DNA of 64,000 nt from an uncultured Gemmatimonadota bacterium (GCA_964627425.1 CAZVIY010000007.1:63510-127509); one strand, 5' to 3'; numbered from the stretch's first letter, positions 13,541 to 60,656 are shown. The notes: generated by a model not told the origin, from the sequence alone. Numbers and translations: made by a program.

Positions 13541-17014
<3,474 letters not shown>

Positions 17015-42809: not shown

Positions 42810-43883
42810 CTACCGGCTCCCGGCCGGCCCCGCGGCGAAGGCGCTCAGGTGCACGAGCCCGTCCCGCCATCCCTCTTCCTCCGCCAGCTCCGGATCGTCC
42901 AGCTCGCCGCCCACGACGCCGCCCGACAGCACGCGGTAGGCGCCCCGGCCCGGCGTGGGCACCTGGGTGAGCTCCGCGTCGGCGACCTGGATGAGCAGGT
43001 CCAGCGCGTCGGCCCGGTCGGCGGGATCCCGGTCGCCTCGGGCGTCGCCCCCCGCACCGCGTCCGGCGGCGCTCCCCGGCCCACCCTCCGAGCCGGCTTC
43101 CGCGCCGCCCCCGGAGCCGGTTCCTCGCCCGCTCTCCTCGCGTCGCTCCTCGCGGAGCATGTCCAGGAGGTAGCCCCGGAGGAGCTGCTCGTGGAGATCG
43201 CCGTAGAGGGCCGGCGCGCCGATCAGGTCCATGCCCAGGGGCCGGCGGCCCAGGAAGACGGCGAGTCCCACCTGCCCCTCCACGAGGGGGAAGGCGTCGC
43301 CGAGCTCCCCGAGGCGCCCCATCCACGTCCGGTAGGCCTCGCCCAGGTCGCCGGTGGAGGAGGAGGCGTCCAGCGTCCGGGCGATCCCGTCGATCTCCTC
43401 CCACACGGCGTGCTGGGCGCGGCCGAGCTCCGAGGGCGCGAACGCCGCCGGGTCGCCGGCGCCGGCGCCCGCCGCCCGCTCCGCCTCCACCTCCCGGGCC
43501 TTCCGCCGGACGGCCGTCGGCGAATGCTGCGGGGCGTGCTCGAAGCGTCCGCTGCGGAAGTGCCAGCGTCCCTGCTCCATGCAGGAGACGGGAAGCGTCG
43601 TGTCGGTGCGGGCCGGGAGCAGGATGGTGCGGCTCGTGGTGCGGTTCTGTTTGGCGCCCACGAGCTGCTCGCCGTCGAGCACCAGGACGTCACGCGGCCC
43701 GCTGTTCCGGGCCACCACCTCGCCCACGTTCCCCGATCCCATCTCGGTGACCTCCACCTCTCCCGCCTCGATGGCGTCCCGGAGCAGGCGGTAGGGCAGC
43801 TCCCGCTCGGTCGCCGCCACCAGGGGAAAGACGGTGAGTCCGGCGCGGCGCAGGGGGCGTCCCGCGTCGACGGTCTCCAGCAT
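42810..43883 (-). CDS. Conserved hypothetical protein with VLVLDGEQLVGAKQNR...PVSCMEQGRW core (possibly ARPP-1-like family)
   Basis: A 357-aa ORF. The N-terminal region resembles a family I recall as ARPP-1/DUF-type (GNVGEVVARN...VLVLDGEQLVGAKQNRTTSRTILLP...LPVSCMEQGRW). The C-terminus has a low-complexity Gly-rich stretch. The family assignment comes from memory only. Confidence 0.5.
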   Translation of the reverse strand: MLETVDAGRPLRRAGLTVFPLVAATERELPYRLLRDAIEAGEVEVTEMGSGNVGEVVARNSGPRDVLVLDGEQLVGAKQNRTTSRTILLPARTDTTLPVSCMEQGRWHFRSGRFEHAPQHSPTAVRRKAREVEAERAAGAGAGDPAAFAPSELGRAQHAVWEEIDGIARTLDASSSTGDLGEAYRTWMGRLGELGDAFPLVEGQVGLAVFLGRRPLGMDLIGAPALYGDLHEQLLRGYLLDMLREERREESGRGTGSGGGAEAGSEGGPGSAAGRGAGGDARGDRDPADRADALDLLIQVADAELTQVPTPGRGAYRVLSGGVVGGELDDPELAEEEGWRDGLVHLSAFAAGPAGSR

Positions 43884-44133
43884 GGCAGTCCTCCAGGTTC
43901 GGTTCGTGAGGACTGCCGATGGTAGGGAGGGGGTGTGACAGCGGACGGGCCAGGGGTGGCGAGCCGCCTCTTCCCCGGGTCGCGTTCGTCCGTTATTTTT
44001 TCCGGTGGGGAGCAGGCCGGATCTTCCGGGCGTCGCGCTCCACGGCCTCGGGAGCCGGACCGCGAACGGCCCGCCCTCGCTGGGGCGAGGCCGTCACCTT
44101 CCACCGGAGCGCGCCAGGTCCGGAGCGATCGCC

Positions 44134-46674
44134 ATGCCGAAAATCCGTCGCTGTCTCCCTTCCCTCGCCTCCCTCCTCGCGGCCGCTCTCGCATCGGGGT
44201 GCGGGGGAGACGGCGGGGCGAATCCGACCGACCCGTCCCCCTCCCCGTCGCCCGACGTCCACTCGGTGGCCGTGGCGCCCTCCGGGGCGAGCCTCGACGC
44301 GCTGGACGCCACCGCGTCGTTCACGGCCACCGCCCGGGACGACGCCGGGCGGACGATGACCGGGATCTCCTTCACCTGGTCCAGCACCGATCCGGAGGTG
44401 GCCACCGTCTCCGGCTCCGGCGTGGCGACCGCCCGGGCGAACGGAATCGCACGGATCGTCGCCCGGGCGGGCGGCGCGGCCGACACGGCCGTCCTGACCG
44501 TGGACCAGGTCGTGACCTCGGTGAGCGTCTCGCCGTCCAGCGTCACCATGGCCGTGGGCGAGACGGCGTCCCTGGCCGCCGAGCCGCAGGACGCCGGCGG
44601 ACACCCGGTGGCGGACGCCAGCGTCGCGTGGAGCTCGGGCGACCCGGGGGTCGTGGAGGTGGACGCCGGGGGGCGGGTGACGGCGAAGGCGGAGGGGACC
44701 GCGACGATCTCGGCGACCTCGGAGGGTCGGTCCGGCACATCGGAGATCACGGTGACCGACGGCTCCGGCACCGGGGCACCCCTCGTGGAAGGGATCTCCC
44801 CCGATCCCATGCCCGAAGGCGGCCAGGTCACGCTCCGGGGCCGGAACTTCGCGAGCTCGGCGTCCGGCAACACGGTCACCGTCGACGGGGTGGTCGCGCG
44901 GGTGGCCGCGGCCACGGCGACGGAGCTCACCGTGGAGGTGCCGCTCTTCGACTGCCTGCCGGCGAGGGTCGTGGAGGTGCGGGTGGAGACGGAGGAGGGC
45001 GCCGCGTCGGCCGCGGCCGGGCTCGAGCCGGACGAGCTCCCCGTGGCCCTCGCGGCCGGGAGCGAATCGGTCCTCTCCGATCCCCCCTCCGCCTGCCTCC
45101 AGTTCCCCGAGAGCGACGGCGACGAGCGGTACCTCCTGCTCGTGCAGTCGCTGTCCTCGGTGGTGGACGGCTTCACCTCGGTGAGGATCACCGCCGAAGC
45201 GGCGGACGGCGCGTCGGCCGCGTCCGCCGCTCCCCTTGCCCTCGCCGCGGCGCCGGACGACAGGGGGGGACCACGCCGCCCCCGGGAGGCCCGGATGCCG
45301 GACGTCCCGTCCTGGCTCCGGGAGCAGCGGGCCGCCGAGCCGCTCCTGCGCGAGTGGGAGCGCCGACACGTGGGAACCCGGAACGTCCTGCGGGAGAGCG
45401 GGCCGCCCGTCGCCGCCGAGGTCACCGGGAGCGTGGCCGTGGGCGACGAGGTCCGGGTCCGCGTGCCCGGGACCGGATCGGGGGATCTGTGCACCACCTT
45501 CACGGAGATCACCGGCCTGGTCCGTGCCGTCGGCGACCGGGCGATCCTGGTCTCCGACGTGGCCAACCCCTCGGGCGGGTTCACCGATGCCGACTACGGG
45601 GACTTCAGCGACTGGATCGACCAGCACATCGTCCCCACCCAGGTCGACTACTTCGGCTCGCCGTCGGACATCGACGGCAACGGGCGGATCGTGGCGGTCG
45701 TCTCCAAGGAGGTCAACGAGCACTGGGGATTCGTGGGGTTCGTGTGGACGGGGGACCTCCTCGCCCGGTCCGACTGCCCCGCGAGCGACGAGGGCGAGTT
45801 CTTCTACGCCAGGGCGCCGGATCCGACGGGCCAGCACGGGGACGTCTACGGGACGGACGTCGCCCGGGGCGCGATGCCGTTCGTCATGGCCCACGAGCTC
45901 ACCCACGTGATTCAGCAGAGCCGCCGGCTGACCATCGGGAAGCCGAAGCTGGACTCCTGGCTCTCCGAGGCGCAGGCCACGCTCTCCGAGGAGGTGGTGG
46001 GCCACGCGGTGACGGGACGCTCGCCGGGACTGAACTACGGCTTCGACGTCGCGGCCAACACGGCGGGCACCGACGAGATCGACTGGTACGTGAACGCGTT
46101 CGTCGACGTGCTGCACTACTTCGGGTTCGAGACCAGTTCGACCCGCGTCGCCGGCGCGCCGGAGCAGTGCGGCTGGCTCCGGTCCGACCCGTCCCCCTGC
46201 GCCGGTCGCGCGCTCTGGTACGGGGTGGGATGGAGCTTCCTGCGGTGGCTGTCGGATCACTGGGGACCGACCCACGTGGGCGGGGAGCGGGAGCTGAACC
46301 GGAGGATCGTCGACGGGGAGTCCAGCGGCTGGGGCGCCGTCGAGGCCGTCTCGGGCGAAGCTGCCGCCGACCTCCTGGCCCGGTGGGCGGCGGCGCTCTA
46401 CGTGGACGACCGGATCCCCGGAGCGTCCGCCCGCCTCACCCTCCCCAGCTGGAACCTCCAGGACATGGAGGAGAGCGTCGTCCGGACCGCCCATCTCCAG
46501 CCCTACGAGCTCCCCTTCGGCGACTGGCAGGCCACGGGGACCGTCCGGTCGAGCTCCGCCGCCTACCTCGCCCTCGAGGGACCGGGGCGGGAGGCCACGG
46601 CGATCCGGGTCCGGGACGGTGCCGACGGCCCGCTCCCGCCGCACGTGCAGGTCGTGCTGGTGCGTCTCCGTTAG
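44134..46674 (+). CDS. Lipoprotein with tandem Big_2/Ig-like domains and a C-terminal HExxH zinc-metallopeptidase-like domain
   Basis: A lipoprotein signal MPKIRRCLPSLASLLAAALASGC; three Big_2-like repeats (...SFTATARDDAGRTMTGISFTWSSTDPEVATVSGSGVATARANGIARIVA..., ...VAWSSGDPGVVEVDAGGRVTAKAEGTATISA...); an IPT-like segment; then HELTHVIQ plus a downstream Glu. The start is chosen at the ATG with the lipobox. Confidence 0.65.
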   Translation: MPKIRRCLPSLASLLAAALASGCGGDGGANPTDPSPSPSPDVHSVAVAPSGASLDALDATASFTATARDDAGRTMTGISFTWSSTDPEVATVSGSGVATARANGIARIVARAGGAADTAVLTVDQVVTSVSVSPSSVTMAVGETASLAAEPQDAGGHPVADASVAWSSGDPGVVEVDAGGRVTAKAEGTATISATSEGRSGTSEITVTDGSGTGAPLVEGISPDPMPEGGQVTLRGRNFASSASGNTVTVDGVVARVAAATATELTVEVPLFDCLPARVVEVRVETEEGAASAAAGLEPDELPVALAAGSESVLSDPPSACLQFPESDGDERYLLLVQSLSSVVDGFTSVRITAEAADGASAASAAPLALAAAPDDRGGPRRPREARMPDVPSWLREQRAAEPLLREWERRHVGTRNVLRESGPPVAAEVTGSVAVGDEVRVRVPGTGSGDLCTTFTEITGLVRAVGDRAILVSDVANPSGGFTDADYGDFSDWIDQHIVPTQVDYFGSPSDIDGNGRIVAVVSKEVNEHWGFVGFVWTGDLLARSDCPASDEGEFFYARAPDPTGQHGDVYGTDVARGAMPFVMAHELTHVIQQSRRLTIGKPKLDSWLSEAQATLSEEVVGHAVTGRSPGLNYGFDVAANTAGTDEIDWYVNAFVDVLHYFGFETSSTRVAGAPEQCGWLRSDPSPCAGRALWYGVGWSFLRWLSDHWGPTHVGGERELNRRIVDGESSGWGAVEAVSGEAAADLLARWAAALYVDDRIPGASARLTLPSWNLQDMEESVVRTAHLQPYELPFGDWQATGTVRSSSAAYLALEGPGREATAIRVRDGADGPLPPHVQVVLVRLR

Positions 46675-47660
46675 GGGGTACGGGCGGGGCCGACCCGCCG
46701 GGCTTCCTCCCTCACCCTCTCCCGGACGGCCGGGGGGTCGACGACCCGGGCGTCGGCGCCGTACTGGAGCACGTGCCGCACCACCCAGTCCGGGTCCGAG
46801 ACGTCGTAGGTGACCTCGACGCTCCCGTCCTCCCGCTCCTCCACCGGGCCGCGCTCGCGGATCCAGGGCGCCACCCGGGGGGAGTAGCGGACGGTGACCT
46901 CCCGGTCGTCGTGGCCCCGGTAGACCCGGCCGTCCTTCAGGTAGCGGGCCGGATCGAAGCCGTCGGGGACGGTGAAGGCCTCGCCGGTGAGCTCTACCTC
47001 GAGGGTCCGGTCCAGCCGGAAGCACCGCACGCCCTCGACCCGGTGGCAGCGGGAGACGGCGTACCAGTGGCCGTCGGCGTAGGCCATGACGTAGGGCTCC
47101 ACCAGCCGCCACTCGGGTCCGTCGGCCGAGGGCTTCAGGTACCGGATCCGGCAGCGCCGCCGGCGCCGGGCCGCCCGGAAGAGCGCCTCCTGGACCCCGT
47201 CCTCGTGGGCTGAGGGCGCGTCGTCCTCCAGGGCCATGAGCTCCTCCAGCTCGTCGGCGCCGGAGACGGCGAGCTCCCGCTCCAGTCGCCGCGCCAGGTC
47301 CAGGTGGCCCCGGGGGGAGCCGCTCCCGCCGCCCCCGGCGGAGATGGCGTGGGCCCGGAGCCCCACGGCCAGGGCCACCGCCTCGCGGGGCGTGAGCTTC
47401 ACGGGGCGCCGGAACTCGCCGGCCGTCCACACGGAGACCCGCCCCTCCTCGATGGCGATCTGGAGGTGGTCGGCCATGCCCGGTCCCTGGTAGTGGGCCC
47501 GGGTGGTCACCTCCTGCAGGTCACGGATCAGGTCCCGCTCGGCCACGTCCAGGGCCGCGGCCAGATCCCGGAGCTCGGCCCCGCCCTCCCGGGCGGCCGC
47601 CGGGAGCAGGTGGAGCACGCGCTCCAGCCGCTCCTCCGCCGGGCCGCGCCCGCCGCTCAC
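46671..47660 (-). CDS. HTH-WYL domain transcriptional regulator (PafC-like)
   Basis: N-terminal HTH (ERLERVLHLLPAAAREGGAELRDLAAALDVAERDL) and C-terminal WYL region (RRCRIRYLKPSADGPEWRLVEPYVMAYADGHWYAVSRCH). The GTG start overlaps the stop of the upstream WYL gene (GTGA). Only the last 329 aa of the 736-aa track ORF are real. Confidence 0.7.
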   Translation of the reverse strand: MSGGRGPAEERLERVLHLLPAAAREGGAELRDLAAALDVAERDLIRDLQEVTTRAHYQGPGMADHLQIAIEEGRVSVWTAGEFRRPVKLTPREAVALAVGLRAHAISAGGGGSGSPRGHLDLARRLERELAVSGADELEELMALEDDAPSAHEDGVQEALFRAARRRRRCRIRYLKPSADGPEWRLVEPYVMAYADGHWYAVSRCHRVEGVRCFRLDRTLEVELTGEAFTVPDGFDPARYLKDGRVYRGHDDREVTVRYSPRVAPWIRERGPVEEREDGSVEVTYDVSDPDWVVRHVLQYGADARVVDPPAVRERVREEARRVGPARTP

Positions 47661-48814
47661 GGTCCCTCCCGGTGGAGGGCCACCACCTTCTCGGCCGTCT
47701 CGGCGAGCCGGCGCTCGAGGGAGGCGGGCCGGATCACCTCGGCCTCGCCCCGGAAGGTGAGCAGCCAGCGGACGAAGGGGCCCACCTGGTAGACGCGGAA
47801 CCGGCGGACGTCGGAGCCGCCCGGCTCCTGGTCCACCAGCTCGCCGCGCCCGTTCCGGGCCACCTGCAGCGAGGAAGGGAAGTGGAAGCGGATCAGCGCC
47901 TCCACGGGCTCCTCCTCCTCGCGGTCCCCCAGCTCCCAGGCCTCGCGGTCCAGGTGGTCGGCCACCCGGAAATCGCCGGGGATCTCGTAGTCGGGCGTCT
48001 TGGGCTTCCTGGAGTTCGGTTCGAGCTCCTCCATCCGGTCCACCCGGAAGACCCGGAGGTCGCCGTCCCGGGTCGCGTCGGATCCCACCAGGTACCAGTG
48101 CCCGTGCTGGAAGAAGAGGCCGTAGGCGGCCACGTCGCGCCCGGAGGTCTCGCCGCGGTAGATGGCGTGGTAGTCGAAGCGCACGCGCTTCCGGGCCAGG
48201 AGGGCGTCGGAGAGGGTCCGGAGGCGCCCGGTCAGCTCGGCCGCTTCGGGATCGTCCGGGTAGAGCACGGGCGTCTCGGGGAGGTCGGCGTCGGCCAGGT
48301 CGAAGCTGAGCTTGCGGAGCGCCGAGCGGGCCTCCCGCCGCAGGGGGAAGGAGGGGAGTTCCGCCACACGCTTCAGGGCGTCCAGGGCCAGGGCCGCCTC
48401 GTCCTCGGCCAGCGTCACCTCCGGGTCGCCGGGGTCCGCCCGCCGGGCGTCTTCCTCCGGATCGCTCCCGTCCCCGCTCCCCGCCTCCCCGGCCCGGGAC
48501 GCCAGGCGCAGGTAGGGCAGGTAGAAGTCCCGGCGGGCGATGCGGTAGCCCTCCGTCTGCTCCATGCCGTAGTTGATGGTGTACGGGACGGTATCCAGCG
48601 GGATGCCGAGCTCCCGGAGCTCGTCCTTGTCCCGCTCGAACATCCGCCGGGCGGAGGCCCGGTCCGTCTCGTCCCCCGTCTCCCACTTCTCGGCGTAGGC
48701 GGGCACCCCCTCCATGATGCGGTCCACCGCCACCGGGAGCCGGCGGCTCACGAGGAAGGTGATCAGGTCGAGCCAGCGCTGGAGCTTCGTGGGCGTGGTC
48801 ATGGCGGGGAACAA
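47657..48814 (-). CDS. HTH-WYL domain transcriptional regulator (PafB-like)
   Basis: N-terminal HTH (KLQRWLDLITFLVSRRLPVAVDRIMEGV), the WYL domain (RVRFDYHAIYRGETSGRDVAAYGLFFQHGHWYLVGSDATRDGDLRVFRVDRM), and a WCX-like C-terminus. Confidence 0.7.
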   Translation of the reverse strand: MFPAMTTPTKLQRWLDLITFLVSRRLPVAVDRIMEGVPAYAEKWETGDETDRASARRMFERDKDELRELGIPLDTVPYTINYGMEQTEGYRIARRDFYLPYLRLASRAGEAGSGDGSDPEEDARRADPGDPEVTLAEDEAALALDALKRVAELPSFPLRREARSALRKLSFDLADADLPETPVLYPDDPEAAELTGRLRTLSDALLARKRVRFDYHAIYRGETSGRDVAAYGLFFQHGHWYLVGSDATRDGDLRVFRVDRMEELEPNSRKPKTPDYEIPGDFRVADHLDREAWELGDREEEEPVEALIRFHFPSSLQVARNGRGELVDQEPGGSDVRRFRVYQVGPFVRWLLTFRGEAEVIRPASLERRLAETAEKVVALHREGP

Positions 48815-48922: not shown

Positions 48923-49252
48923 TCACCGCAGCAGGACGAGGCCGCCGGAGAGGACGTCGATGGTGACCCGCTCGTAGCCCTCGGGAAACTCCCGCTCGGC
49001 GATCTCCCGGTCGGTCTCCACGACCCACACGCGGGAGACCTCGTCCCGGTCCGCCGTCCAGGTCCAGAACTCCCCGGGCTCGATCCTGTCGTGGAAGGAC
49101 CCAGAGGAGACGAAGGCCGTGCCCTGGCTGGCGTTGCTGGCCTCGATCCGCACCCCGTCCTGGGGCGCGGCGAGCCATTCCAGCGCCGAACAGGCGGACA
49201 GGGGGAGGAGGAGCGCCAGGACCAGCGCCAGGACGAGCGTCCGGCTCGACAT
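48923..49252 (-). CDS. Small hypothetical lipoprotein (109 aa)
   Basis: The internal ATG has an AGGAGG RBS 6 nt upstream. The signal peptide MSSRTLVLALVLALLLPLSAC carries a lipobox. The 143-aa track ORF is probably too long. Confidence 0.4.
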   Translation of the reverse strand: MSSRTLVLALVLALLLPLSACSALEWLAAPQDGVRIEASNASQGTAFVSSGSFHDRIEPGEFWTWTADRDEVSRVWVVETDREIAEREFPEGYERVTIDVLSGGLVLLR

Positions 49253-49496
49253 GGAGGCCTCCTGTGGTTGGCGGGTCCCTGACCCCGACTGCCGCGGATC
49301 GGCCGCGGGGAGGGGCCGACGGATCGAACTCACGATAGGAGGCCGCTCTGACATCCGCAGGTGGGATCCGCCGCCGCTCCGCCCTCGCGGCGGATCGGAG
49401 CTTTGGAAGGCAGGGGACCCGGCACCGCAGCCCGGTGTAGCGAATACGTAGCCATTTCATATCACCCCCTGGCGGGGACGGTCGGAGGGCGTCGAC

Positions 49497-49790
49497 ATGC
49501 GCGTCATCAGCACGAGGGATCTACGCAACACGCCCGGCAAGGTCCGGGAGATGCTCGAGGAGGAGGACCTGGTCCTCACCTCCGGCAGCACACCCATCGC
49601 CTATCTCACGGGGATCGGCGAGGGAGAGCGGATCGAAGAGGTGGCCGCCGCCATCCGGAAAGCGCGGGCTCAGCTCGCGGTGCACCGGATGCGGCGGGAC
49701 GCGCAGGAGGAGGGACTCGACCAGCTCACCCCGGAGGAGATCGAGGAGGAGATCCGGGCCGTTCGTGAGGGCCGCCCAGGGGCCCCTTGA
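49497..49790 (+). CDS. Type II antitoxin (VapB/Phd-like) of the downstream PIN toxin
   Basis: A 97-aa acidic protein. Its stop overlaps the start of the PIN gene (TTGA/GTG). A small-antitoxin-like N-terminus (MRVISTRDLRNTPGKVREMLEEEDLVLT). Confidence 0.6.
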   Translation: MRVISTRDLRNTPGKVREMLEEEDLVLTSGSTPIAYLTGIGEGERIEEVAAAIRKARAQLAVHRMRRDAQEEGLDQLTPEEIEEEIRAVREGRPGAP

Positions 49791-50197
49791 GGATCGTGGT
49801 GGACACGAACGTGGTGGTCTCGGGGCTCCTCAGCCCCCACGGACCGCCCGGCCGGATCGTCGACGGGATCGTGGACGGGCGACTCACTCCCCTGTACGAC
49901 GACCGGATCTTCGACGAATACCGGAGGGTCCTCCGCCGGGACCGATTCCCCTTCGCTCCCGGCGACGTGGGTGCCCTGCTGGAGCAGGTCCAGGCCGCGG
50001 GAGAGCACGTGACGCCCGAGCCGTGGGCGGGCGAGCTCTCCGATCCGGACGACCGGCCGTTCCTGGAGGTGGCCCTCACCGGGCGGGCCCGGGCGCTGGT
50101 GACCGGGAACCGCCGTGACTTCGAGCCGAGGCGCGGGACCCATTCCGTGACGGTCCTCTCCCCCCGGGAGCTCGTGGAACGTATGCGGAGGGCGTGA
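49787..50197 (+). CDS. PIN domain toxin (VapC-like, TIGR00305-type)
   Basis: RIVVDTNVVVSGLLSP..., conserved acidic residues (D..., PDDRPFLEVAL, TGN) and a 136-aa length. Confidence 0.7.
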   Translation: MRIVVDTNVVVSGLLSPHGPPGRIVDGIVDGRLTPLYDDRIFDEYRRVLRRDRFPFAPGDVGALLEQVQAAGEHVTPEPWAGELSDPDDRPFLEVALTGRARALVTGNRRDFEPRRGTHSVTVLSPRELVERMRRA

Positions 50198-50209: not shown

Positions 50210-52570
50210 TTACCCTTCCTCCTCCCGGTTCCGCTCCTTCAGGGTCTCGATGAGTCGGGAGGCGGTGCCCTCGCGCCCCCCGGTGAGCTCCGCGTAGCTC
50301 TCCGCTCCCACCAGGGCGCAGGCCTCGGGCTCGGCCAGCCCGGCCTCCTCGGCCAGGTCCTCGATGAACTCGAGCTGCTTCTCGCTCGGCGGGCGACGCT
50401 CCCGGAGCTCCTCGATGAGGGCGCTTGCGGTGCCGTCGCTGCCGCCGGTGAGCTCGGAGAAGTCGTCGGCGTCCACGAGCCCCGCGGCCTCGGCCTCCGT
50501 GAGGCCCTGCTCCTCGGCCAGGCTCTCGATGAACGCGAGCTGCTTCTCCGAGGCGGGAGGGCCGCTCCCCTCGGTCTCCGACTGGAGCCGGTCGATGAGC
50601 TCGCTGATCTCCTCTCCCGACAGCTCCTCGAGATCGTCGGCGCCGCGCTCCCGCAGGAGCTCCTCCTGGCGCTCCTCGGCCACCCCGCGCATGAGGCTCT
50701 CGGCCAGGGCCAGCTGCCGCGGCGTCGGGCGCTCCCGACGGCGCTTCAGGGCCACGTTGTGCATGCCCCGGAACTGATCCCGGAAGCTCTCCCACACGGC
50801 GGCTGCCGGCTGCTCGCCCTCCTCGATCCCGTCCAGGGTCTCCTCCATCTCGGCGGTGAAGTCGGGATAGAAGACGTCGATCTCCAGGTCGTCGAGCTCC
50901 ACGCCGTCGGGGAGCCGGTCCGGCAGGGACTCGTCCTCTTCCACCGGGCCGTAGTAGGGCACGACCCGCGTCCAGAGCGTGCGCCCCTTCTCGGTGGGCA
51001 CGAGCTCCGAGCCGTCCTCCTCCACGTAGGTCCGCTCCAGCAGCTTCTCCACCGTGGGGGCGTAGGTGGAGGGACGGCCGATGCCCTCCTCCCGCATCTT
51101 CCGGATCAGCGTGTGCTGGCGGTAGCGGGCCGGCGGCTTCGTCTCGTCCTCGATGAGCCGCGGGTTCTCGGCGTCTTCCTCCGGGGGCTCCAGCCGGTGG
51201 ACGGCGCCGGGCTCCAGGGCGTCGGTGGGCGGGCTCGTGGCGGGCGGGGACCGCAGGCCGTCGTAGGCGGCCTCCCACCCGGGATGGACCCGCCAGCGGG
51301 CGGTCCCCTGGAGCGGCCGGTCGAAGCCCTCCACCCCGGCCGTCAGCACCGCCTTCTCGTAGCGGGACCGGGACATCTGGCTGGCGGCGAACCGGGCCCA
51401 GATCAGCCGGTACAGCCGCTCCTCGCTCCCTTCCAGCCCGTCGGGACGGTCGACGCCGGGGCGGGTGGGGCGGATGGCCTCGTGGGCGTCCTGCACCGCC
51501 CCCGAGTCGTCGGATCCGGCCACCCCGGGGCCCAGGTGATCCCCGCCCCAACGCTCCTCGATCAGGGCCCGGACCCGGCGACGTGCGTCCTTCCCGGTCC
51601 GGGTGGAGTCGGTGCGGATGTAGGTGATGTGCCCGTTGTTGTAGAGGTCGCCGGCCACGGCCATGGTGTGTCCGGGGCGCCAGCCCAGCCGGGAGCCCGC
51701 CGCGCTCAGCAGGGCCTCGGTGGTGAACGGGGCCTTCGGCTTCCGCGTGTAGCTCCCCCGCTCCACGTCGTCCACCGTCACCTCGCCGGCCGCCTCGAGG
51801 GCGTCGGCCGCGCGACGGGCCAGCTCGCCGTCGTGGGTGCGGTCGGGCCGGAAGTTCCCCTCGTCGATCCACGCGTCCGGGTCGTCCTTCTCGTGGAAGT
51901 GGACCTGGTAGGTGATGCCCTCGGCGTCGGCCAGCACCCGGAAGTAGGGGACCGGGACGAAGGCCTCGCGCTCGAGCTCGCGCTCCACCACGAAGCCCAG
52001 GGTGGGCGTCTGGACCCGGCCCATCGACGAGGAGCCGGTGAACCACGACTTGCTGAACTTGGAGGCCCGGAAGCCCACCAGGCGGTCCAGGAACTTCCGC
52101 ACCTTGGCCGAGTCCACCAGGTTCGGGTCGATGGGGCGGGGGTCCTCCAGCGCCTCGCGGACCGCCTCCTCGGTGATCTCCTGGAAGGTGATCCGGTGGA
52201 TCTCGCCCCGGCCCTCCAGGATCTCGGCCAGGCGCCAGGCGATGAACTCCCCCTCCCGGTCGGGGTCGGTGGCCAGGTAGAACCGGTCCACACCGCGCCG
52301 CTCCGCTTCCTCCAGGACCTGGTCCATCAGCTCCCGGGAACCCTCGGTCCAATCCCACGGCGGCTCGGGGAGCTTCCCGTCCTCCGACGTCCACCACATG
52401 GCCTTCCGGCCCTGCTTCCCCTCGGTGGGCAGGTCCTGGACGTGGCCCATGCAGGCGCGCACCAGGAAGTCCTCGCCCAGGTACTTCTCGATGGTGCGGG
52501 CCTTGGCCTTCGACTCGACGAGCAGGAGGTTCACGTGCGGTCCTCTCGGGTCCTCGGGTGCGTGATTCAC
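50210..52570 (-). CDS. Type IA DNA topoisomerase (Topo I/III-like) with two C-terminal ~55-aa tandem repeats
   Basis: Toprim LLLVESKAKARTIEKYLG, TDPDREGE, the catalytic Tyr region GHITYIRTDSTR, and topoisomerase domains 2-4. The C-terminus has two repeats SEKQL(A/E)FIE(S/D)LAEE(Q/A)GL...ELTGG(S/R)(D/E)GTAS(A/R)LIE(E/T)L(R/K)ER, lacks the Zn-ribbon and is short (786 aa). Whether it is the housekeeping topA is unclear. Confidence 0.85.
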   Translation of the reverse strand: MNHAPEDPRGPHVNLLLVESKAKARTIEKYLGEDFLVRACMGHVQDLPTEGKQGRKAMWWTSEDGKLPEPPWDWTEGSRELMDQVLEEAERRGVDRFYLATDPDREGEFIAWRLAEILEGRGEIHRITFQEITEEAVREALEDPRPIDPNLVDSAKVRKFLDRLVGFRASKFSKSWFTGSSSMGRVQTPTLGFVVERELEREAFVPVPYFRVLADAEGITYQVHFHEKDDPDAWIDEGNFRPDRTHDGELARRAADALEAAGEVTVDDVERGSYTRKPKAPFTTEALLSAAGSRLGWRPGHTMAVAGDLYNNGHITYIRTDSTRTGKDARRRVRALIEERWGGDHLGPGVAGSDDSGAVQDAHEAIRPTRPGVDRPDGLEGSEERLYRLIWARFAASQMSRSRYEKAVLTAGVEGFDRPLQGTARWRVHPGWEAAYDGLRSPPATSPPTDALEPGAVHRLEPPEEDAENPRLIEDETKPPARYRQHTLIRKMREEGIGRPSTYAPTVEKLLERTYVEEDGSELVPTEKGRTLWTRVVPYYGPVEEDESLPDRLPDGVELDDLEIDVFYPDFTAEMEETLDGIEEGEQPAAAVWESFRDQFRGMHNVALKRRRERPTPRQLALAESLMRGVAEERQEELLRERGADDLEELSGEEISELIDRLQSETEGSGPPASEKQLAFIESLAEEQGLTEAEAAGLVDADDFSELTGGSDGTASALIEELRERRPPSEKQLEFIEDLAEEAGLAEPEACALVGAESYAELTGGREGTASRLIETLKERNREEEG

Positions 52571-52786
52571 GGCGACGGGGCAGGGGGGCGTTCCGCGAAT
52601 TCCCGCCCCGGTATCGGTCTCTCACACCGTGAAGGCCTCGTCGATCCGAACGCAACGCTCGGGGCGACTCAGGGGGACCTCCTCGCCGGGTCGGGCTTGA
52701 CGGGGTGTGTAGCGTGTAGTAAATAATACACGATCGACGGAGAGATAGAGACGGAAGAAGACGGGGACCCCGGCCCCAGGACGACC

Positions 52787-53137
52787 ATGAGCCTCGGCCA
52801 GTACATCCGATCGCGCAGGGAGGAGCTGCGAGAGGACGACCCGAGCTATTCGCTCCGGCAGGTGGCCGAGCGCGTCGGGATCGAGCCCTCGTACCTGAGC
52901 AAGGTGGAGCGGGACATCGGCTCGCCGCCCTCCGAGGAGACGCTGGTGAAGCTCGCCCGGGAGCTGGACGTGGATGCCGACGTGCTGCTGGCCATGGCCG
53001 GGAAGGTCTCCTCCGACCTGCGGGAGGTGATCCGGAAGCGGCCGAAGCTGTTCGGTCGGCTGATCCGGGAGATGAAGGAGATGCCCGACCACGCGGTGCT
53101 CCGGGTGGTGCGGGAGGTACGGGACGGACGCTGGTGA
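52787..53137 (+). CDS. XRE family HTH transcriptional regulator
   Basis: SLRQVAERVGIEPSYLSKVERDIGSPPSEETLVKLARELDVDADVLL is a canonical HTH_XRE. Confidence 0.75.
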   Translation: MSLGQYIRSRREELREDDPSYSLRQVAERVGIEPSYLSKVERDIGSPPSEETLVKLARELDVDADVLLAMAGKVSSDLREVIRKRPKLFGRLIREMKEMPDHAVLRVVREVRDGRW

Positions 53138-57141: not shown

Positions 57142-58217
57142 GCTGCCTGTCCTTCCGTACCCGGAAAGCCACCGTCGGCCACGGCGTCGAAGAACGCCTC
57201 GGCGACCCTCGGCTGAAATTTCGTACCCACCAGCCTCCGGATCTCCTCCAGGGCTTCCGGCACCGGCGCCGCCTCCTTGTAGACCCGCTCGTGGGTCAGG
57301 GAGTCGAAGACGTCGGCGACGGACACGATCCTGGCGCTCAGCGGGATGGCCTCGCCTTCCAGGCCGTCGGGATACCCGCTGCCGTCCCAGTTCTCGTGGT
57401 GTGATCGGGCGATCTCCGCCGCGGTCTCGAGCACCGGGAACCGGCTGTCCGAGAGTATCTGCTCGCCGATCAGGGTGTGCCTCTTCATGGCCTGGTACTC
57501 CTCGTCGGTCAGGGGACCTGGCTTCAGGAGGATCTGGTCGGAGATCCCGATCTTTCCGACGTCGTGGAGCGGAGCGGCGCGCCTCAGCGTGTCGAGCTCG
57601 TCGTCTTCCAGGCCCAGGCGACGGCCGATCCTGTACGCCATCTCGCCCACCCGCCGGGTGTGAGCTCCGGTGTCGTCGTCACGGTACTCGGCGGCCAACG
57701 CAAGGCGCTCCAGGAGCTCGATCCTGGCCGCCTCCAGCTCGGCGGTCCGCTCCTGGACCTTCTCCTCCAGGCGCTCGTTGGTCCGCTCGAGGACCCGCTG
57801 GAGGCGCCGGGTCTCGAGCTGGTTCCGGACCCGGTAGCGGAGCTCGGAGGGGCTGACGGGCTTGGCGACGAAATCGTTCGCTCCCCGGTCGAAGACGTCC
57901 TTCTTCGTCTCACGGCTCGTATCGGAGGTGAGGACGATCACGGGCAGATAGGACCGATCCGACCGGGCCGCGCTCAGGCGATCCAACACCTGGAAGCCGC
58001 TCATCCCCGGCATCTGGAGGTCGAGCACCACGAGGTCCGGCACGTCCGCGGTGATGGCCTCCGTGGCCCGTGCCGGATCGCTCCAGCACTCCACGTTCTC
58101 GTAGCCCGCGTTCTCGAGGAGCCGCCGGACCATCCGCAACAGGGCCTCGTCGTCGTCCACGAGGACGATCCTCGACTCGACCACCGGCACGGCGGTCCCG
58201 GAGCTCCGTTCCGTCAT
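57138..58217 (-). CDS. Response regulator with HD-GYP phosphodiesterase output domain (RpfG-like)
   Basis: REC domain (VLVDDDEALLRMVRRLL...DLVVLDLQMPGMSG, with D and K positions), then an HD-GYP domain (HTRRVGEMAYRIGRRL...PLHDVGKIGI...HHENWDGSGYPDGL). Confidence 0.85.
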   Translation of the reverse strand: MTERSSGTAVPVVESRIVLVDDDEALLRMVRRLLENAGYENVECWSDPARATEAITADVPDLVVLDLQMPGMSGFQVLDRLSAARSDRSYLPVIVLTSDTSRETKKDVFDRGANDFVAKPVSPSELRYRVRNQLETRRLQRVLERTNERLEEKVQERTAELEAARIELLERLALAAEYRDDDTGAHTRRVGEMAYRIGRRLGLEDDELDTLRRAAPLHDVGKIGISDQILLKPGPLTDEEYQAMKRHTLIGEQILSDSRFPVLETAAEIARSHHENWDGSGYPDGLEGEAIPLSARIVSVADVFDSLTHERVYKEAAPVPEALEEIRRLVGTKFQPRVAEAFFDAVADGGFPGTEGQAA

Positions 58218-58465
58218 ACGGTACCTGGGGTGGAAGCGGCGAATGAAGAGGCCAGCTCAGGTAGGATAGCTGGCGGCGCGGGTCGAATACAGTACCGCCA
58301 TCGACCGGAGATTGGTCCGCCTGGCCGGACTCCGATCCGTCCCGTGAGCCTCACTTCCCGACGATCGGCCCTCCAGGAGGACCCGTGGTGGAGAAGGGGA
58401 GGGGGGCGGCACGTCGCACCATCGCGGTCGTGTCGCTCAGTGACCATTGGGTGACAGGAGTAGCT

Positions 58466-58888
58466 CTAGCCCCCAAGGATCCTGAGTACCTCGGCGGGCG
58501 GTTTGATCGGAATGCCGGAGAACTCGCCCAGGTCGAGCAGATGGGCGTCTCCGGAAGCCACCCAATCGGCTTCGGCCGAAACGGCACACTCCAGGACTCT
58601 GTTGTCGTCAGGATCTTCCTCGATGACCTTCAGATGGGTCGAAGGACGCACGATACGGGCGTGATGAACCACATCCCCGACGAAGGCGGTGACATCCGAC
58701 TCCTCCAGTTGGAGTTTCGGATAGCGAAGGACTCGCCCCAGTTCATTGATCAGCTCGGGAGATGTCGCGAGCTGTACTTGCCCGGTTCGACACAGGTGGT
58801 AGAGACGATGCGGCACCCCACGCCAGGCGACTGCTGATACGAGTACGTTCGTGTCCAGTACAGCTACTGGTCGTTCTCGCGGGCCCAC
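58466..58888 (-). CDS. PIN domain toxin (VapC-like, TIGR00305-type)
   Basis: VAVLDTNVLVSAVAWRG... with the conserved acidic residues. The GTG start overlaps the 3' end of the upstream antitoxin by 25 nt. Confidence 0.7.
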   Translation of the reverse strand: MGPRERPVAVLDTNVLVSAVAWRGVPHRLYHLCRTGQVQLATSPELINELGRVLRYPKLQLEESDVTAFVGDVVHHARIVRPSTHLKVIEEDPDDNRVLECAVSAEADWVASGDAHLLDLGEFSGIPIKPPAEVLRILGG

Positions 58889-59139
58889 CGGATGGCCTCC
58901 TCCACATCCTCCTGGGTAAGGCCCTGTTCCTCGAAACGCTCAGCAATCCGGGCAGCCAGCCTTTCGAAGTCCTCCACCGGTCCCGCGGCCTTGCGGAGCT
59001 CAGCCTTTCCCTCCCGAACAGTCCAGAACACGACGTCCCCTTCCCCCAGGTCGAGCTGGTCACGCACCGACTTGGGAATCGTGGTTTGCCCCTTGGAACT
59101 GACCTTCGTGGTAGGTGGGCGCACAGAATCAGGAGACAT
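58864..59139 (-). CDS. AbrB/MazE/SpoVT-family antitoxin
   Basis: SSKGQTTIPKSVRDQLDLGEGDVVFW is the swapped-hairpin AbrB-type DNA-binding domain. A 91-aa protein with an acidic C-terminus. Confidence 0.7.
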   Translation of the reverse strand: MSPDSVRPPTTKVSSKGQTTIPKSVRDQLDLGEGDVVFWTVREGKAELRKAAGPVEDFERLAARIAERFEEQGLTQEDVEEAIRWARENDQ

Positions 59140-59183
59140 GCTTCCCCTCCGGCCGATAGGAACCTCTTTACTTTCTTACTTTT

Positions 59184-59191
59184 TTACGTAA
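59184..59191. promoter_or_regulatory. Palindrome TTACGTAA in the AT-rich region about 45 nt upstream of the AbrB-type antitoxin start; candidate autoregulatory operator or promoter element
   Basis: Read at 59171-59200: ctttcttacttttttacgtaacgggatacg. Confidence 0.3.
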
Positions 59192-59414
59192 CGGGATACG
59201 AATGGTTCCCATCAGGGGCGCGATTGGCGGACCGGCTGAACAGCTCATTGGCGGGCAGGGACGCCCTCTGGTTTCCGCAACGCCGTTCCGGCGACCGTGA
59301 GCGTGGAGTGGAAAGCTCGCGTCCCTCTAGGAGTTGGGTGACAGCGACGCTCAGTACAGCTTGCACGACTCAAAGGTAGATGTTGGAGGCGACCACGACC
59401 TGAATCTTCACGAT

Positions 59415-60263: not shown

Positions 60264-60363
60264 CGGGAGCTACGTTTCCAGATCGCACCCGGGGACATCG
60301 AAGCACACGACCCTGGGCACGGTACCCTAGCCGGACTGCCGCCGTTCACGAGATGACGCGAGC

Positions 60364-60591
60364 TCATCCGGTCGGTGGATGGGGATCGTGCCCATAGGAG
60401 CGCCGATCACGAATTCGGCCGTCCCGACCGTGGACCAGGAGCTCCGCGCCCTGGTTCTTCGCGATGCGGCGTGCGGCCCGGATCGCCTCCTCCTGGGTGG
60501 CGAAGCGCCGCGTGTCGCGGCGGCTCCCCTCCTTCCGCACCGCCCACTCTCCCTTGCGAGGGACGACGTGCTGATTCGGGCTTCGAGCCAT
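60364..60591 (-). CDS. DUF2188 domain protein
   Basis: QHVVPRKGEWAVRKEGSRRDTRRFATQEEAIRAARRIAKNQGAELLVHGRDGRIRDRRSYGHDPHPP is collinear with DUF2188 family members. Confidence 0.65.
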   Translation of the reverse strand: MARSPNQHVVPRKGEWAVRKEGSRRDTRRFATQEEAIRAARRIAKNQGAELLVHGRDGRIRDRRSYGHDPHPPTG

Positions 60592-60612
60592 CAGGGTTCC
60601 CCAGCTTTCTCG

Positions 60613-60656
60613 AGCGACCGGACACCTTCGTTATTTAAATTACAATACATGTCCGG
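60613..60656. other. Perfect 9-bp inverted repeat GACCGGACA...TGTCCGGTC flanking a 25-nt AT-rich spacer (stem-loop; a possible terminator for the DUF2188 gene, or an operator)
   Basis: Read at 60611-60660: agcgaccggacaccttcgttatttaaattacaatacatgtccggtcaagg. Confidence 0.5.

What the first reader, a model, noticed from the sequence alone, without database searches (positions are those of the whole stretch)
46671..48814. Tandem, translationally coupled HTH-WYL regulator pair resembling PafB/PafC, 30 kb from the intein-containing recA
Two adjacent minus-strand genes (385 aa and 329 aa) each have an N-terminal HTH and a C-terminal WYL domain. They are joined by a GTGA stop/start overlap. This is the hallmark of the actinobacterial PafBC heterodimer, which activates the LexA-independent DNA-damage regulon (including recA) through the RecA-NDp promoter. 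Here they are not next to a pafA (Pup ligase) gene. Tandem WYL pairs are also used as sensors or regulators of defence systems (BrxR/CapW-like proteins and the Caulobacter regulator DriD). No obvious LexA/Cheo box was seen upstream of recA. The recA promoter may therefore depend on this pair.
Basis: partly seen in the sequence, partly recalled or inferred. Interest (0 to 1): 0.55.

Follow-up and report, generated by a model that had tools for sequence, protein, structure and literature searches.

The report
PafBC DNA-damage regulator pair in Gemmatimonadota
Two overlapping genes encode true counterparts of the mycobacterial DNA-damage activator PafB/PafC, but in a Gemmatimonadota bacterium, away from any proteasome genes, and preceded by the same unusual promoter type that PafBC uses in mycobacteria.

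Summary
Two minus-strand genes, 47657..48802 (381 aa from the ATG at 48802, not 385 aa) and 46671..47660 (329 aa), share a GTGA stop/start overlap. Both have the wHTH-WYL-WCX domain order.

Sequence profiles and a structure model assign the upstream gene to PafB and the downstream gene to PafC. BrxR, CapW and DriD match far less well.

The host is not an actinobacterium. The closest homologues of the pair and of RecA are all from Gemmatimonadota (Longimicrobiales). The tandem pair is conserved across that phylum.

The PafB residues that read the GTC triplet, and the arginines that bind single-stranded DNA, are conserved.

The published PafBC promoter geometry (tGTCgg-N10-tAnnnT) is strongly enriched around these genes in 80 related loci. 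It lies upstream of pafBC operons, addB-addA, ARPP-1 and VWA genes. The 64-kb window has exactly two instances. One precedes a lipoprotein-pafB-pafC operon (49353..49332). The other precedes an ARPP-1 gene (43940..43919).

recA has a sigma-70-like promoter overlapped by a conserved direct repeat (CGAA-N7-CGAA), which may be a repressor operator.

Verdict: a new member of a known kind, in an unexpected phylum, uncoupled from pafA and probably autoregulated.

The parts
47657..48802 (-). pafB-like gene: 381 aa, winged HTH - linker - WYL - WCX. It carries the DNA-reading head (R53 and R57) and the main arginines that bind single-stranded DNA.
   Evidence: - Pfam finds WYL (2e-19) and WCX (6.6e-9).
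- phmmer's best full-length matches are M. smegmatis PafB chains 9fnd_X and 7p5x_AY.
- The family profile A1 hits PafB at 5e-29 and PafC at 2.7e-9.
- The AlphaFold model has pLDDT 81, and its top Foldseek hit is 9fnd_X at 5e-18.
- The start at ATG 48802 rests on alignment A1 and the identical 381-aa protein P0001.
46671..47660 (-). pafC-like gene: 329 aa, HTH_PafC - WYL - WCX. It is the predicted partner that contacts sigma factor domain 4.
   Evidence: - Pfam finds HTH_PafC (2.6e-16), WYL and WCX.
- phmmer gives PafC (7p5x_AX) 6.8e-18 against PafB 5e-4.
- Profile A2 gives PafC 1.9e-33 over its full length, against PafB 6e-16.
47657..47660 (-). GTGA stop/start overlap. The pafC start codon (GTG) overlaps the pafB stop codon (TGA), giving translational coupling.
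   Evidence: The overlap is read directly. In 62 related loci with a complete pafC, 48 have the pafC start overlapping the pafB stop (1-34 nt, mostly 8 or 4), directly abutting it, or one base after it.
49332..49353 (-). PafBC-type hybrid promoter: TGTCAGAG-CGGCCTCC-TATCGT. The -26 element (TGTCAG) is at 49353-49348 and the -10 (TATCGT) at 49337-49332. There is no -35 element. It is the predicted promoter of the lipoprotein-pafB-pafC operon.
   Evidence: - It has one mismatch to the actinobacterial RecA-NDp consensus.
- It is the top PWM hit in the window, at 29.1 bits.
- It is one of only 2 matches to TGTC-N12-TAnnnT in 64 kb, against 0.27 expected.
- The -10 ends 80 nt upstream of the ATG at 49252.
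- No sigma-70-type promoter, and no terminator outside coding sequence, lies between it and pafB.
- Equivalent sites precede pafBC operons in the closest relatives L167 and L168 and in many other loci.
48923..49252 (-). Small lipoprotein ORF of 109 aa (MSSRTLVLALVLALLLPLSAC...). It lies between the promoter and pafB and is probably the first gene of the operon.
   Evidence: An AGGAGG Shine-Dalgarno sequence precedes the ATG at 49252, and the protein has a lipobox-type signal peptide. It has no Pfam hit. It has no counterpart in the 80 related loci, so it is specific to this lineage.
43919..43940 (-). Second PafBC-type promoter: TGTCACAC-CCCCTCCC-TACCAT, upstream of the ARPP-1 gene.
   Evidence: - It is the second of the 2 TGTC-N12-TAnnnT matches in the window, with PWM score 13.5.
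- The -10 ends 36 nt upstream of the ATG at 43883, which has a GGAGG Shine-Dalgarno sequence.
- The same TGTCA(C/G)ACCCCC...TAnnnT variant precedes ARPP-1 and VWA genes in 18 related loci.
- It also precedes the ARPP-1 orthologue in the closest relative, L167, where the 5' UTR is conserved too.
42810..43883 (-). ARPP-1 family gene, a predicted member of the local regulon.
   Evidence: Pfam finds ARPP-1 at 6e-65. ARPP-1 lies next to pafBC in about 17 of the 80 related loci, and directly downstream of pafC in L167.
It holds a direct repeat CCGAAGAAATTGCGAA (13434-13449), a -35 TTGCGA (13443-13448), a GTC triplet (13451-13453) and a -10 TAGCTT (13466-13471).
   Evidence: - The sequence is.
- The best PWM score in the recA upstream region is 0.6, so there is no full PafBC -26 element.
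- It holds the only exact TTCG-N7-TTCGG match in the window.
- The block GACCCGAAsAAATTGCGAA is conserved at recA of six other Gemmatimonadota loci.
- The GTC register relative to the -10 is not constant across them.

Best explanation
The two genes encode a heterodimeric PafB/PafC transcription activator of a Gemmatimonadota bacterium.

**Inferred mechanism, by homology with the mycobacterial system.** Single-stranded DNA made during DNA damage binds the arginine-lined groove of the WYL domains, mainly that of PafB. The activated heterodimer then inserts between the housekeeping sigma factor and the DNA ('sigma adaptation'). The PafB winged HTH reads the GTC triplet of a -26 element through R53 and R57. 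The PafC HTH contacts sigma domain 4. RNA polymerase can then start at promoters that have a -10 (TAnnnT) but no -35.

**Predicted targets.** In this window they are the pair's own operon (lipoprotein-pafB-pafC, site 49353..49332) and the ARPP-1 gene (site 43940..43919). In related genomes the same promoter type also precedes addB-addA (a helicase-nuclease for double-strand-break resection), VWA genes and an uncharacterised 415-aa gene that heads many pafBC operons.

**Differences from mycobacteria.** The pair is not linked to pafA or the proteasome locus, and it appears to activate its own transcription.

**Shown here:** gene structure, orthology, conserved functional residues, and enrichment and placement of the motif.

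**Inferred only:** heterodimer formation, activation by single-stranded DNA, sigma adaptation and the actual regulon.
For: **Orthology.**
- Reciprocal assignment of gene 1 to PafB and gene 2 to PafC holds by phmmer, by family profiles and by fold search.
- The two window paralogues resemble each other only in the WYL core (32 bits). The B/C split is therefore old and not a local duplication.

**Conservation of the pair.**
- 298 species genomes encode a relative. The best 80 are nearly all labelled Gemmatimonadota.
- pafC follows pafB in 78 of 80 loci.
- Stop and start overlap or abut in 48 of 62 loci.

**Functional residues** (numbering from PMC8635444 and PMC11804915, mapped with the and alignments and the invariant lists).
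- PafB R46 and R50 correspond to R53 and R57, both invariant. The local motif RRMFERDK matches SRMFERDK in M. smegmatis.
- The backbone contacts K5, R8, A43, K52, R56 and Y76 are kept.
- PafB WYL residues R181, Y196, R204, R208, R211 and R214 correspond to R222, Y237, R245, R250, R253 and R256.
- PafC R201 and R204 correspond to R215 and R218.

**Promoter motif.** The geometry was defined beforehand in actinobacteria as tGTCgg(N10)tA(N3)T (PMC8635444).
- In 1.06 Mb of related loci, TGTCRGNG-N8-TANNNT occurs 20 times against 0.55 expected. 17 of the 20 are on the pafBC strand.
- TGTC-N12-TAnnnT occurs 98 times against about 13 expected. 67 of the 98 lie just upstream of pafB, the 415-aa gene, addB, ARPP-1 or VWA.
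- 23 of 74 loci have a site within 250 nt upstream of pafB. The controls give 2 (reverse strand) and 0 (inside pafB).
- The window has 2 sites against 0.27 expected, both at promoter distance from start codons near the pair.
- The closest relatives have perfect-consensus sites ahead of pafBC.

**Functional link to repair.** addB-addA (PDDEXK_1 and UvrD domains) lies next to pafBC in about 20 loci and carries the motif. AdnAB belongs to the mycobacterial PafBC regulon (PMC8223512).
Against: - Nothing here shows binding, activation or damage-induced expression.
- The motif statistics come from loci chosen because they contain pafBC. They show association with pafBC neighbourhoods, not a genome-wide regulon.
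[quoted passage not shown] The wing is also 3 residues longer.
- PafC D62, the contact to sigma domain 4, is Q67 here.
- Part of the site set uses a variant (TGTCACACCCCC...) that another factor could read.
- recA, the archetypal target, lacks a convincing site in this window.
- NCBIfam has no model hit for either protein.
Confidence: 0.72

Rival explanations
1. The pair is the main activator of recA in this genome, acting through a RecA-NDp-type promoter in place of LexA control.
For: - The minimal published consensus (GTC...tA...T) is met at 13451-13471.
- recA promoters of two named Gemmatimonadota relatives carry good -26 elements in the same register: aGTCGGAG-N8-TATACT (PWM 21.6) and aGTCACAG-N8-TATGAT (PWM 15.9).
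- recA is under dual control in mycobacteria (PMC8223512).
Against: - The window's recA site scores 0.6 on the lineage PWM.
- GTC-N12-TAnnnT is not enriched in the window: 5 found against 4.06 expected.
- The promoter has a good -35 (TTGCGA) at 17-nt spacing, which PafBC promoters characteristically lack.
- In three related recA promoters the GTC is shifted by 1 nt relative to the -10. Its conservation may therefore belong to the overlapping direct-repeat operator.
Confidence: 0.2
2. The pair is a defence-system sensor or regulator of the BrxR/CapW type. It would control a neighbouring immunity or toxin-antitoxin module, for example the Phd/PIN pair at 49497-50197.
For: PADLOC's generic Cas-associated WYL models hit both proteins. 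A Phd/PIN toxin-antitoxin pair lies 0.7 kb away.
Against: - CapW and BrxR are only weak profile matches (1e-3 to 4e-7), against 5e-29 and 1.9e-33 for PafB and PafC.
- The pair is conserved across the phylum in varied contexts.
- The toxin-antitoxin pair, the topoisomerase and the XRE gene are not found next to pafBC in any of the 80 related loci.
- The recurrent neighbours are addAB, ARPP-1 and VWA, not BREX, CBASS or CRISPR.
Confidence: 0.03
3. The proteins are PafBC orthologues, but the TGTC-N12-TAnnnT elements are read by some other factor, for example an alternative sigma factor. The pair's true targets would then be elsewhere.
For: The TGTCACACCCCC subclass differs from the actinobacterial consensus at positions 6 and 8. 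There are no binding data.
Against: - The geometry matches PafBC exactly: a hexamer, 10 nt, then the -10. It is too short for a -35/-10 pair.
- GTC is invariant, and so are the residues that read it (R53 and R57).
- The sites cluster at pafBC operons themselves.
- Only 2 sites occur in 64 kb, so this is not a general promoter type.
Confidence: 0.08

Closest known systems
Mycobacterial/actinobacterial PafBC (M. smegmatis PafB/PafC, PDB 7P5X and 9FND; Arthrobacter aurescens fused PafBC, PDB 6SJ9)
   Same: - Two paralogous wHTH-WYL-WCX proteins, in the gene order pafB then pafC, co-translated.
- Best sequence, profile and fold matches.
- The same GTC-reading arginines in HTH-B.
- The same WYL arginines for single-stranded DNA.
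- The same promoter geometry, tGTCgg-N10-tAnnnT.
- A link to a helicase-nuclease for double-strand-break resection (AdnAB there, AddAB here).
   Different: - A different phylum (Gemmatimonadota).
- Not adjacent to pafA or the Pup-proteasome locus.
- A PafBC-type promoter ahead of its own operon, which predicts autoregulation. Mycobacterial PafBC levels do not change on damage (PMC8223512, PMC10693628).
- PafB has a longer, low-complexity linker (about residues 103-127 and 172-184, low pLDDT).
- Wing residue W70 is replaced by Met, and PafC D62 by Gln.
- A frequent site variant, TGTCACACCCCC.
- recA here lacks a clear site.
- Only about 24% sequence identity.
DriD (Caulobacter crescentus; PDB 8TP8, 9PFQ)
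   Same: It is a wHTH-WYL-WCX activator of an SOS-independent DNA-damage response and senses single-stranded DNA in the WYL domain. It is the next-best structural and profile match.
   Different: DriD is a single-gene homodimer. Here there are two diverged paralogues with distinct HTH domains. The profile scores are far weaker (1.3e-7 and 9e-16, against 5e-29 and 1.9e-33 for PafB and PafC).
BrxR / CapW defence-associated WYL repressors (PDB 7QFZ, 7T8K, 7TB6, 9C5G)
   Same: They share the wHTH-WYL-WCX architecture. CapW also senses single-stranded DNA.
   Different: They are single-gene homodimeric repressors encoded beside BREX or CBASS systems. No such system is present here or in the related loci, and similarity is weak.

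Membership tests
PafBC | Two paralogous wHTH-WYL-WCX proteins encoded in tandem, pafB upstream of pafC, in one transcription unit | tested here: met
   The domains are shown. The arrangement is conserved in 78 of 80 related loci, and stop and start overlap or abut in 48 of 62.
PafBC | Each subunit is closest to its own actinobacterial counterpart (B to B, C to C) | tested here: met
   Profile A1 gives PafB 5e-29 against PafC 2.7e-9. Profile A2 gives PafC 1.9e-33 against PafB 6e-16. The Pfam HTH_PafC model hits gene 2 only. The top Foldseek hit for gene 1 is PafB chain 9fnd_X.
PafBC | HTH-B residues that read the GTC triplet (R46, R50) and contact the DNA backbone (K5, R8, S40, K52, R56, Y76) | tested here: met
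   The alignment maps R46 to R53 and R50 to R57, both invariant in A1. K6, R9, K59, R63 and Y86 are kept, and S40 becomes T46. The residue list is from PMC8635444.
PafBC | WYL-domain residues that bind single-stranded DNA (PafB R181, Y196, R204, R208, R211, R214; PafC R201, R204) | tested here: met
   The PafB residues map to R222, Y237, R245, R250, R253 and R256. The PafC residues map to R215 and R218, both invariant in A2. The residue list is from PMC11804915. Of the PafC WCX residues W250, Y254 and Y255, only the Trp is kept (W266).
PafBC | Cognate hybrid promoters tGTCgg-N10-tAnnnT (a -26 element plus a -10, with no -35) in the genome | tested here: met
   The window has 2 sites against 0.27 expected, both at promoter distance. 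Related loci have 20 against 0.55 expected (strict pattern) and 98 against about 13 (loose pattern), concentrated upstream of pafBC, addB, ARPP-1 and VWA.
PafBC | recA carries the RecA-NDp / PafBC promoter | tested here: inconclusive
   The window's recA has only the minimal GTC...TA...T pattern, with PWM score 0.6, plus a sigma-70-like -35. Two relatives have good sites, and three have the GTC shifted by 1 nt.
PafBC | Genetic linkage to pafA and the Pup-proteasome locus | tested here: not met
   No Pup-ligase or proteasome domain was found among the large ORFs of the window scanned against Pfam. None of the recurrent neighbour clusters that were identified in the 80 loci (addAB, ARPP-1, VWA, an OMP) is one; the 415-aa gene has no Pfam hit and several smaller clusters were not scanned. 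Whether the genome has these genes elsewhere could not be tested. This is a contextual feature, not a biochemical one.
PafBC | Contacts to RNA polymerase: HTH-B wing W70, and HTH-C D62 (Asp or Glu) | tested here: not met
   W70 aligns with M80, in a wing that is 3 residues longer. D62 aligns with Q67.
PafBC | Heterodimer formation, activation by single-stranded DNA, and sigma adaptation at RNA polymerase | not testable with these tools
   These need biochemistry or genetics.
BrxR/CapW defence regulators | A single-gene homodimeric WYL repressor encoded beside a BREX, CBASS or other defence system | tested here: not met
   Here there are two diverged paralogues. No defence system recurs in the synteny. 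Profile matches are only 1e-3 to 4e-7.
DriD | A single-gene homodimeric WYL activator | tested here: not met
   The arrangement is a tandem heteromeric pair, and DriD scores far below PafB and PafC.

The most novel reading that the evidence does not exclude
PafBC and its sigma-adaptation promoters would not be an actinobacterial invention tied to the Pup-proteasome system. Instead they would be an older, two-subunit DNA-damage activator that also operates in Gemmatimonadota, a Gram-negative phylum. There it would be autoregulated. It would drive addAB and an ARPP-1/VWA gene set. It would work beside a second, lineage-specific damage operator (TTCG-N7-TTCGG) that marks recA and some pafBC promoters. 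This would be a two-branch response parallel to LexA plus PafBC in mycobacteria.
Probability: 0.55. Interest if true: 0.65.

Novelty: new member of a known kind. Interest (0 to 1): 0.55.

Why it matters
PafBC is described in the literature as the mycobacterial or actinobacterial master activator of the LexA-independent DNA-damage response. Sigma adaptation is described as a mycobacterial mechanism, genetically tied to the Pup-proteasome locus. No paper in the searchable library mentions PafBC together with Gemmatimonadota.

This locus shows three things conserved in another phylum without that linkage:
- the two-subunit regulator;
- the residues that read DNA and sense single-stranded DNA;
- the -26/-10 promoter architecture.

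That gives an independent lineage in which to test which features of sigma adaptation are essential. For example, the W70 and D62 contacts are not conserved. RbpA, a factor used in the mycobacterial in vitro assays, is described as actinobacteria-specific (PMC11804915).

It also predicts a compact, testable regulon: pafBC itself, addAB, ARPP-1 and VWA. And it supplies a candidate promoter code for annotating DNA-damage genes in a poorly studied, mostly uncultured phylum.

Tried and rejected
- **NCBIfam.** Neither protein gave a hit, so no PafB or PafC equivalog call was possible.
- **Pfam HTH models.** None hits the N-terminus of gene 1, even at E<5. The HTH had to be shown through the PDB alignment and the structure model.
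- **Exact-sequence look-ups of the window's own proteins.** They returned no contig. The genome could therefore not be extended, and pafA, prcAB and lexA elsewhere in it could not be checked.
- **Strict RecA-NDp scan at recA.** No hit.
  - It served mainly as a positive control. Many of these loci, probably actinobacterial, carry TGTCRGTG-N8-TAGCGT ahead of recA.
  - Named Gemmatimonadota recA loci had to be fetched one at a time.
- The direct repeat therefore could not be tied to a LexA gene.
- **Defence-regulator reading (BrxR/CapW).** Rejected on similarity and synteny.
- **Local duplication as the origin of the pair.** Rejected, because the two paralogues share only 32 bits of similarity.

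Full report
**1. What is in the sequence**

The region holds two adjacent minus-strand genes. The downstream gene runs 46671..47660 and is 329 aa from a GTG start. The upstream gene ends with TGA at 47659-47657. This overlaps the GTG at 47660-47658, giving the reported GTGA junction.

A 22-member family alignment begins at the ATG at 48802, with consensus MxxxITKLQRWLDL. A 100% identical 381-aa protein is also on record. I therefore take 47657..48802 (381 aa).

The window has about 72-75% G+C over most of its length.

**2. Domains and family**

Pfam finds WYL and WCX in both proteins and HTH_PafC in the downstream one only. NCBIfam finds nothing. PADLOC finds only generic Cas-associated WYL models.

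Against all PDB sequences:
- The upstream protein's best full-length matches are M. smegmatis PafB (9fnd_X, 7p5x_AY). Residues 4-102 align to the PafB winged HTH.
- The downstream protein matches PafC (7p5x_AX) at 6.8e-18, against 5e-4 for PafB. It aligns to the PafC half of the fused Arthrobacter PafBC.

Family profiles sharpen the assignment:

| Query profile | PafB | PafC | DriD | CapW | BrxR |
|---|---|---|---|---|---|
| Upstream family (A1) | 5e-29 | 2.7e-9 | 1.3e-7 | 1e-3 | not listed |
| Downstream family (A2) | 6e-16 | 1.9e-33 (full length) | 9e-16 | 8e-7 | 4e-7 |

An AlphaFold model of the upstream protein has mean pLDDT 81 and shows a winged HTH, a WYL domain and a WCX domain. Its top Foldseek hit in the PDB is PafB in the RNA polymerase complex (9fnd_X, 5e-18). 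The fused PafBC, DriD, PafC, CapW and BrxR follow.

The two window proteins resemble each other only in the WYL core (32 bits). They are old paralogues, each orthologous to its actinobacterial counterpart.

**3. Organism and conservation**

Homologues of the upstream protein at 53-74% identity are named, where a name exists, Longimicrobiales, Gemmatimonadota or Gemmatimonadetes. JGI labels many of them 'proteasome accessory factor B'.

A scan of one genome per species found relatives in 298 genomes. The best 80 loci are almost all labelled Gemmatimonadota. The nearest RecA proteins (83-93% identity) are also from Gemmatimonadota. The host is therefore a Gemmatimonadota bacterium, probably Longimicrobiales, and not an actinobacterium.

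In 78 of the 80 loci a pafC-like gene follows pafB. In 48 of 62 loci with a complete pafC, the pafC start overlaps the pafB stop (most often by 8 or 4 nt), abuts it or starts one base after it.

**4. Functional residues**

Residue roles come from the cryo-EM papers, and I mapped them with the and alignments.

In M. smegmatis, the PafB HTH reads the GTC triplet through R46 and R50. K5, R8, S40, K52, R56 and Y76 contact the backbone. The PafC HTH contacts sigma domain 4 (PMC8635444). In the window protein:
- R46 and R50 correspond to R53 and R57, within RRMFERDK (SRMFERDK in M. smegmatis). Both are invariant in the family.
- K6, R9, K59, R63 and Y86 are kept, and S40 becomes T46.
- The wing-tip W70 is M80.
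- PafC D62 is Q67.

The residues needed for binding single-stranded DNA come from PMC11804915. All are present and invariant or nearly so:
- PafB R181, Y196, R204, R208, R211 and R214 correspond to R222, Y237, R245, R250, R253 and R256.
- PafC R201 and R204 correspond to R215 and R218.

**5. The promoter motif**

The published in vivo consensus is tGTCgg(N10)tA(N3)T. It consists of a -26 element plus a housekeeping -10, with no -35 (PMC8635444).

*In the window.*
- The classical form, TGTCRGTG-N8-TANNNT with at most 1 mismatch, has one hit: 49353..49332 on the minus strand.
- The loose form, TGTC-N12-TAnnnT, has exactly two hits against 0.27 expected.
  - TGTCAGAG-CGGCCTCC-TATCGT (49353..49332). 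Its -10 ends 80 nt upstream of the ATG (49252) of a small lipoprotein ORF that precedes pafB.
  - TGTCACAC-CCCCTCCC-TACCAT (43940..43919). Its -10 ends 36 nt upstream of the ATG (43883) of an ARPP-1 family gene.
- No sigma-70-type promoter, and no terminator outside coding sequence, lies between the first site and pafB.

*In the 80 related loci (1.06 Mb).*
- TGTCRGNG-N8-TANNNT occurs 20 times against 0.55 expected from first-order Markov simulations. 17 of the 20 are on the pafBC strand.
- The loose form occurs 98 times against about 13 expected. 67 of the 98 lie just upstream of pafB, a 415-aa gene that heads many pafBC operons, addB, ARPP-1 or VWA genes.
- 23 of 74 loci have a site within 250 nt upstream of pafB. 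The reverse-strand control gives 2 and the control inside pafB gives 0.

*In the two closest relatives.*
- L168 has TGTCGGTG-N8-TATCAT 74 nt before pafB.
- L167 has TGTCAGTG-N8-TACATT before a 926-aa gene that is followed by pafBC.
- L167 also has TGTCAGAC-CCCCTCCC-TAAACT before its ARPP-1 gene, with a conserved 5' UTR.

The motif was defined in another phylum before this analysis, so the test is not circular. The loci were chosen around pafBC, however. The result therefore shows association with pafBC neighbourhoods and not a genome-wide regulon.

**6. Synteny**

Recurrent neighbours of pafBC are as follows:
- addB-addA (PDDEXK_1 and UvrD domains), in about 20 loci, directly upstream or downstream on the same strand;
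- ARPP-1, in about 17 loci;
- a VWA protein, in about 12 loci;
- the unannotated 415-aa gene, in 19 loci.

None of the window's other neighbours recurs. These are the Big_2 protein, the Phd/PIN pair, the type IA topoisomerase and the XRE regulator. The large ORFs of the window that were scanned against Pfam show no Pup ligase, proteasome or LexA domain.

AdnAB, the mycobacterial counterpart of AddAB, belongs to the PafBC regulon. Mycobacterial PafBC levels do not change on DNA damage (PMC8223512, PMC10693628). A PafBC-type promoter ahead of pafBC itself is therefore a difference from mycobacteria.

**7. recA**

recA (13541..17014) contains two inteins. Its upstream region has no match to the lineage PWM, with a best score of 0.6.

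It reads GACCCGAAGAAATTGCGAAAGTCCCGCCCGCCGGATAGCTT. This contains a -35 TTGCGA and a -10 TAGCTT at 17-nt spacing.

The block GACCCGAAsAAATTGCGAA is conserved at recA in six further Gemmatimonadota loci. It contains a direct repeat, CGAA-N7-CGAA (TTCG-N7-TTCGG on the other strand). The window's only exact match to that repeat is this site.

The same repeat occurs elsewhere:
- at the recA or aminotransferase-recA promoters of all named Gemmatimonadota loci fetched, in either orientation;
- immediately after the -10 of about ten PafBC-type promoters.

This is the pattern expected for a repressor operator of an SOS-like branch.

A GTC triplet sits in the PafBC register at recA in the window and in L165 and L166. 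The latter two have good -26 elements, with PWM scores of 15.9 and 21.6. In L161, L169 and L171 the GTC is 1 nt closer to the -10. GTC-N12-TAnnnT is not enriched in the window.

PafBC control of recA in this genome is therefore not supported by the sequence, though it is not excluded.

**8. Comparison with known systems and novelty**

The pair meets the biochemical and architectural criteria of PafBC that can be tested in silico. It fails the contextual one (linkage to pafA) and two RNA-polymerase contact residues.

It is not BrxR/CapW-like or DriD-like in gene organisation or in degree of similarity.

Database pipelines already label some homologues 'proteasome accessory factor B'. No paper in the searchable library mentions PafBC together with Gemmatimonadota. 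The reviews I read treat PafBC as actinobacterial and tied to the proteasome locus.

I rate it a new member of a known kind in an unexpected phylum. Its distinctive points are the lack of proteasome linkage, the predicted autoregulation, a C-rich site variant and a compact local regulon.

Noticed in passing
window 13434-13452 (+); also L161-L166, L169-L171, L081-L086, L090, L125, L134, and next to PafBC-type promoters in L009, L017, L019, L020, L030, L031, L038, L041, L043, L048, L072: A conserved direct repeat, yTTCG-N7-TTCGG (CCGAA-N7-CGAAr on the other strand), marks the recA or aminotransferase-recA promoters of Gemmatimonadota. It also sits directly after the -10 of several PafBC-type promoters. 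It may be a lineage-specific SOS-like operator, and it resembles the alphaproteobacterial GTTC-N7-GTTC LexA box. The window's only exact match is at recA.
   Followed up: partly
window 13541-17014 (+): recA carries two inteins. One is inserted after ...KIGVMFG and before SPETTSGG. The other is inserted after ...RVKVVKNK and before [11 protein letters not shown] recall these as the two insertion sites known separately in M. leprae and M. tuberculosis RecA. The closest RecA homologues (344-363 aa) have no intein.
   Followed up: no
related loci, e.g. L080 5533-11941, L057, L074, L021, L022, L024, L046, L059, L066: addB-addA (a PD-(D/E)XK nuclease plus a UvrD-type helicase) lies directly beside pafBC on the same strand in about 20 Gemmatimonadota genomes. 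It often has its own TGTCRG..TAnnnT promoter. The window itself has no addAB.
   Followed up: partly
related loci, e.g. L080 1128-2375, and L167 2618-5398: An uncharacterised gene of about 415 aa, with no Pfam hit, heads the pafBC operon in 19 genomes and sits behind a PafBC-type promoter. In the closest relative, L167, a different 926-aa gene with no Pfam hit takes that place. In the window the place is taken by a 109-aa lipoprotein. The first gene of the operon is therefore variable.
   Followed up: no
window 50210-52570 (-) and 52727-53137 (+): A 786-aa type IA topoisomerase (Toprim and Topoisom_bac domains) has a C-terminal tail of acidic repeats (...SEKQLxFIExLAEE...). A small XRE/HTH_3 regulator is transcribed divergently from it. 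Neither has a PafBC-type site, and neither recurs next to pafBC in other genomes.
   Followed up: no
window 49497-50197 (+): A Phd/YefM-like antitoxin (97 aa) and a PIN_3 toxin (136 aa) have overlapping stop and start codons. They lie between the pafBC promoter and the topoisomerase gene.
   Followed up: no
window 2-1618 (+): An EgtD-like histidine-specific methyltransferase (Methyltransf_33, 2e-108) lies at the window edge. In mycobacteria the ergothioneine genes belong to the PafBC regulon. Its promoter is outside the window and could not be checked.
   Followed up: no
window 58000-64000: G+C drops from about 73% to 53-63% over the last 6 kb of the window. This may be foreign or otherwise atypical DNA. 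One GTC-N12-TAnnnT match (59393..59373, minus strand) lies in it.
   Followed up: no
L092, L094, L095, L102, L104, L112, L119, L121, L133, L138, L149, L160 (metagenomic recA loci): Many recA loci at 70-75% identity to the window's RecA carry TGTCRGTG-N8-TAGCGT 60-150 nt upstream. They are presumably actinobacterial and serve as a positive control for the scan. Several others (L099, L127, L136, L158) carry the C-rich form TGTCGGACCCC...TAnGGT. Their taxonomy is unknown.
   Followed up: no
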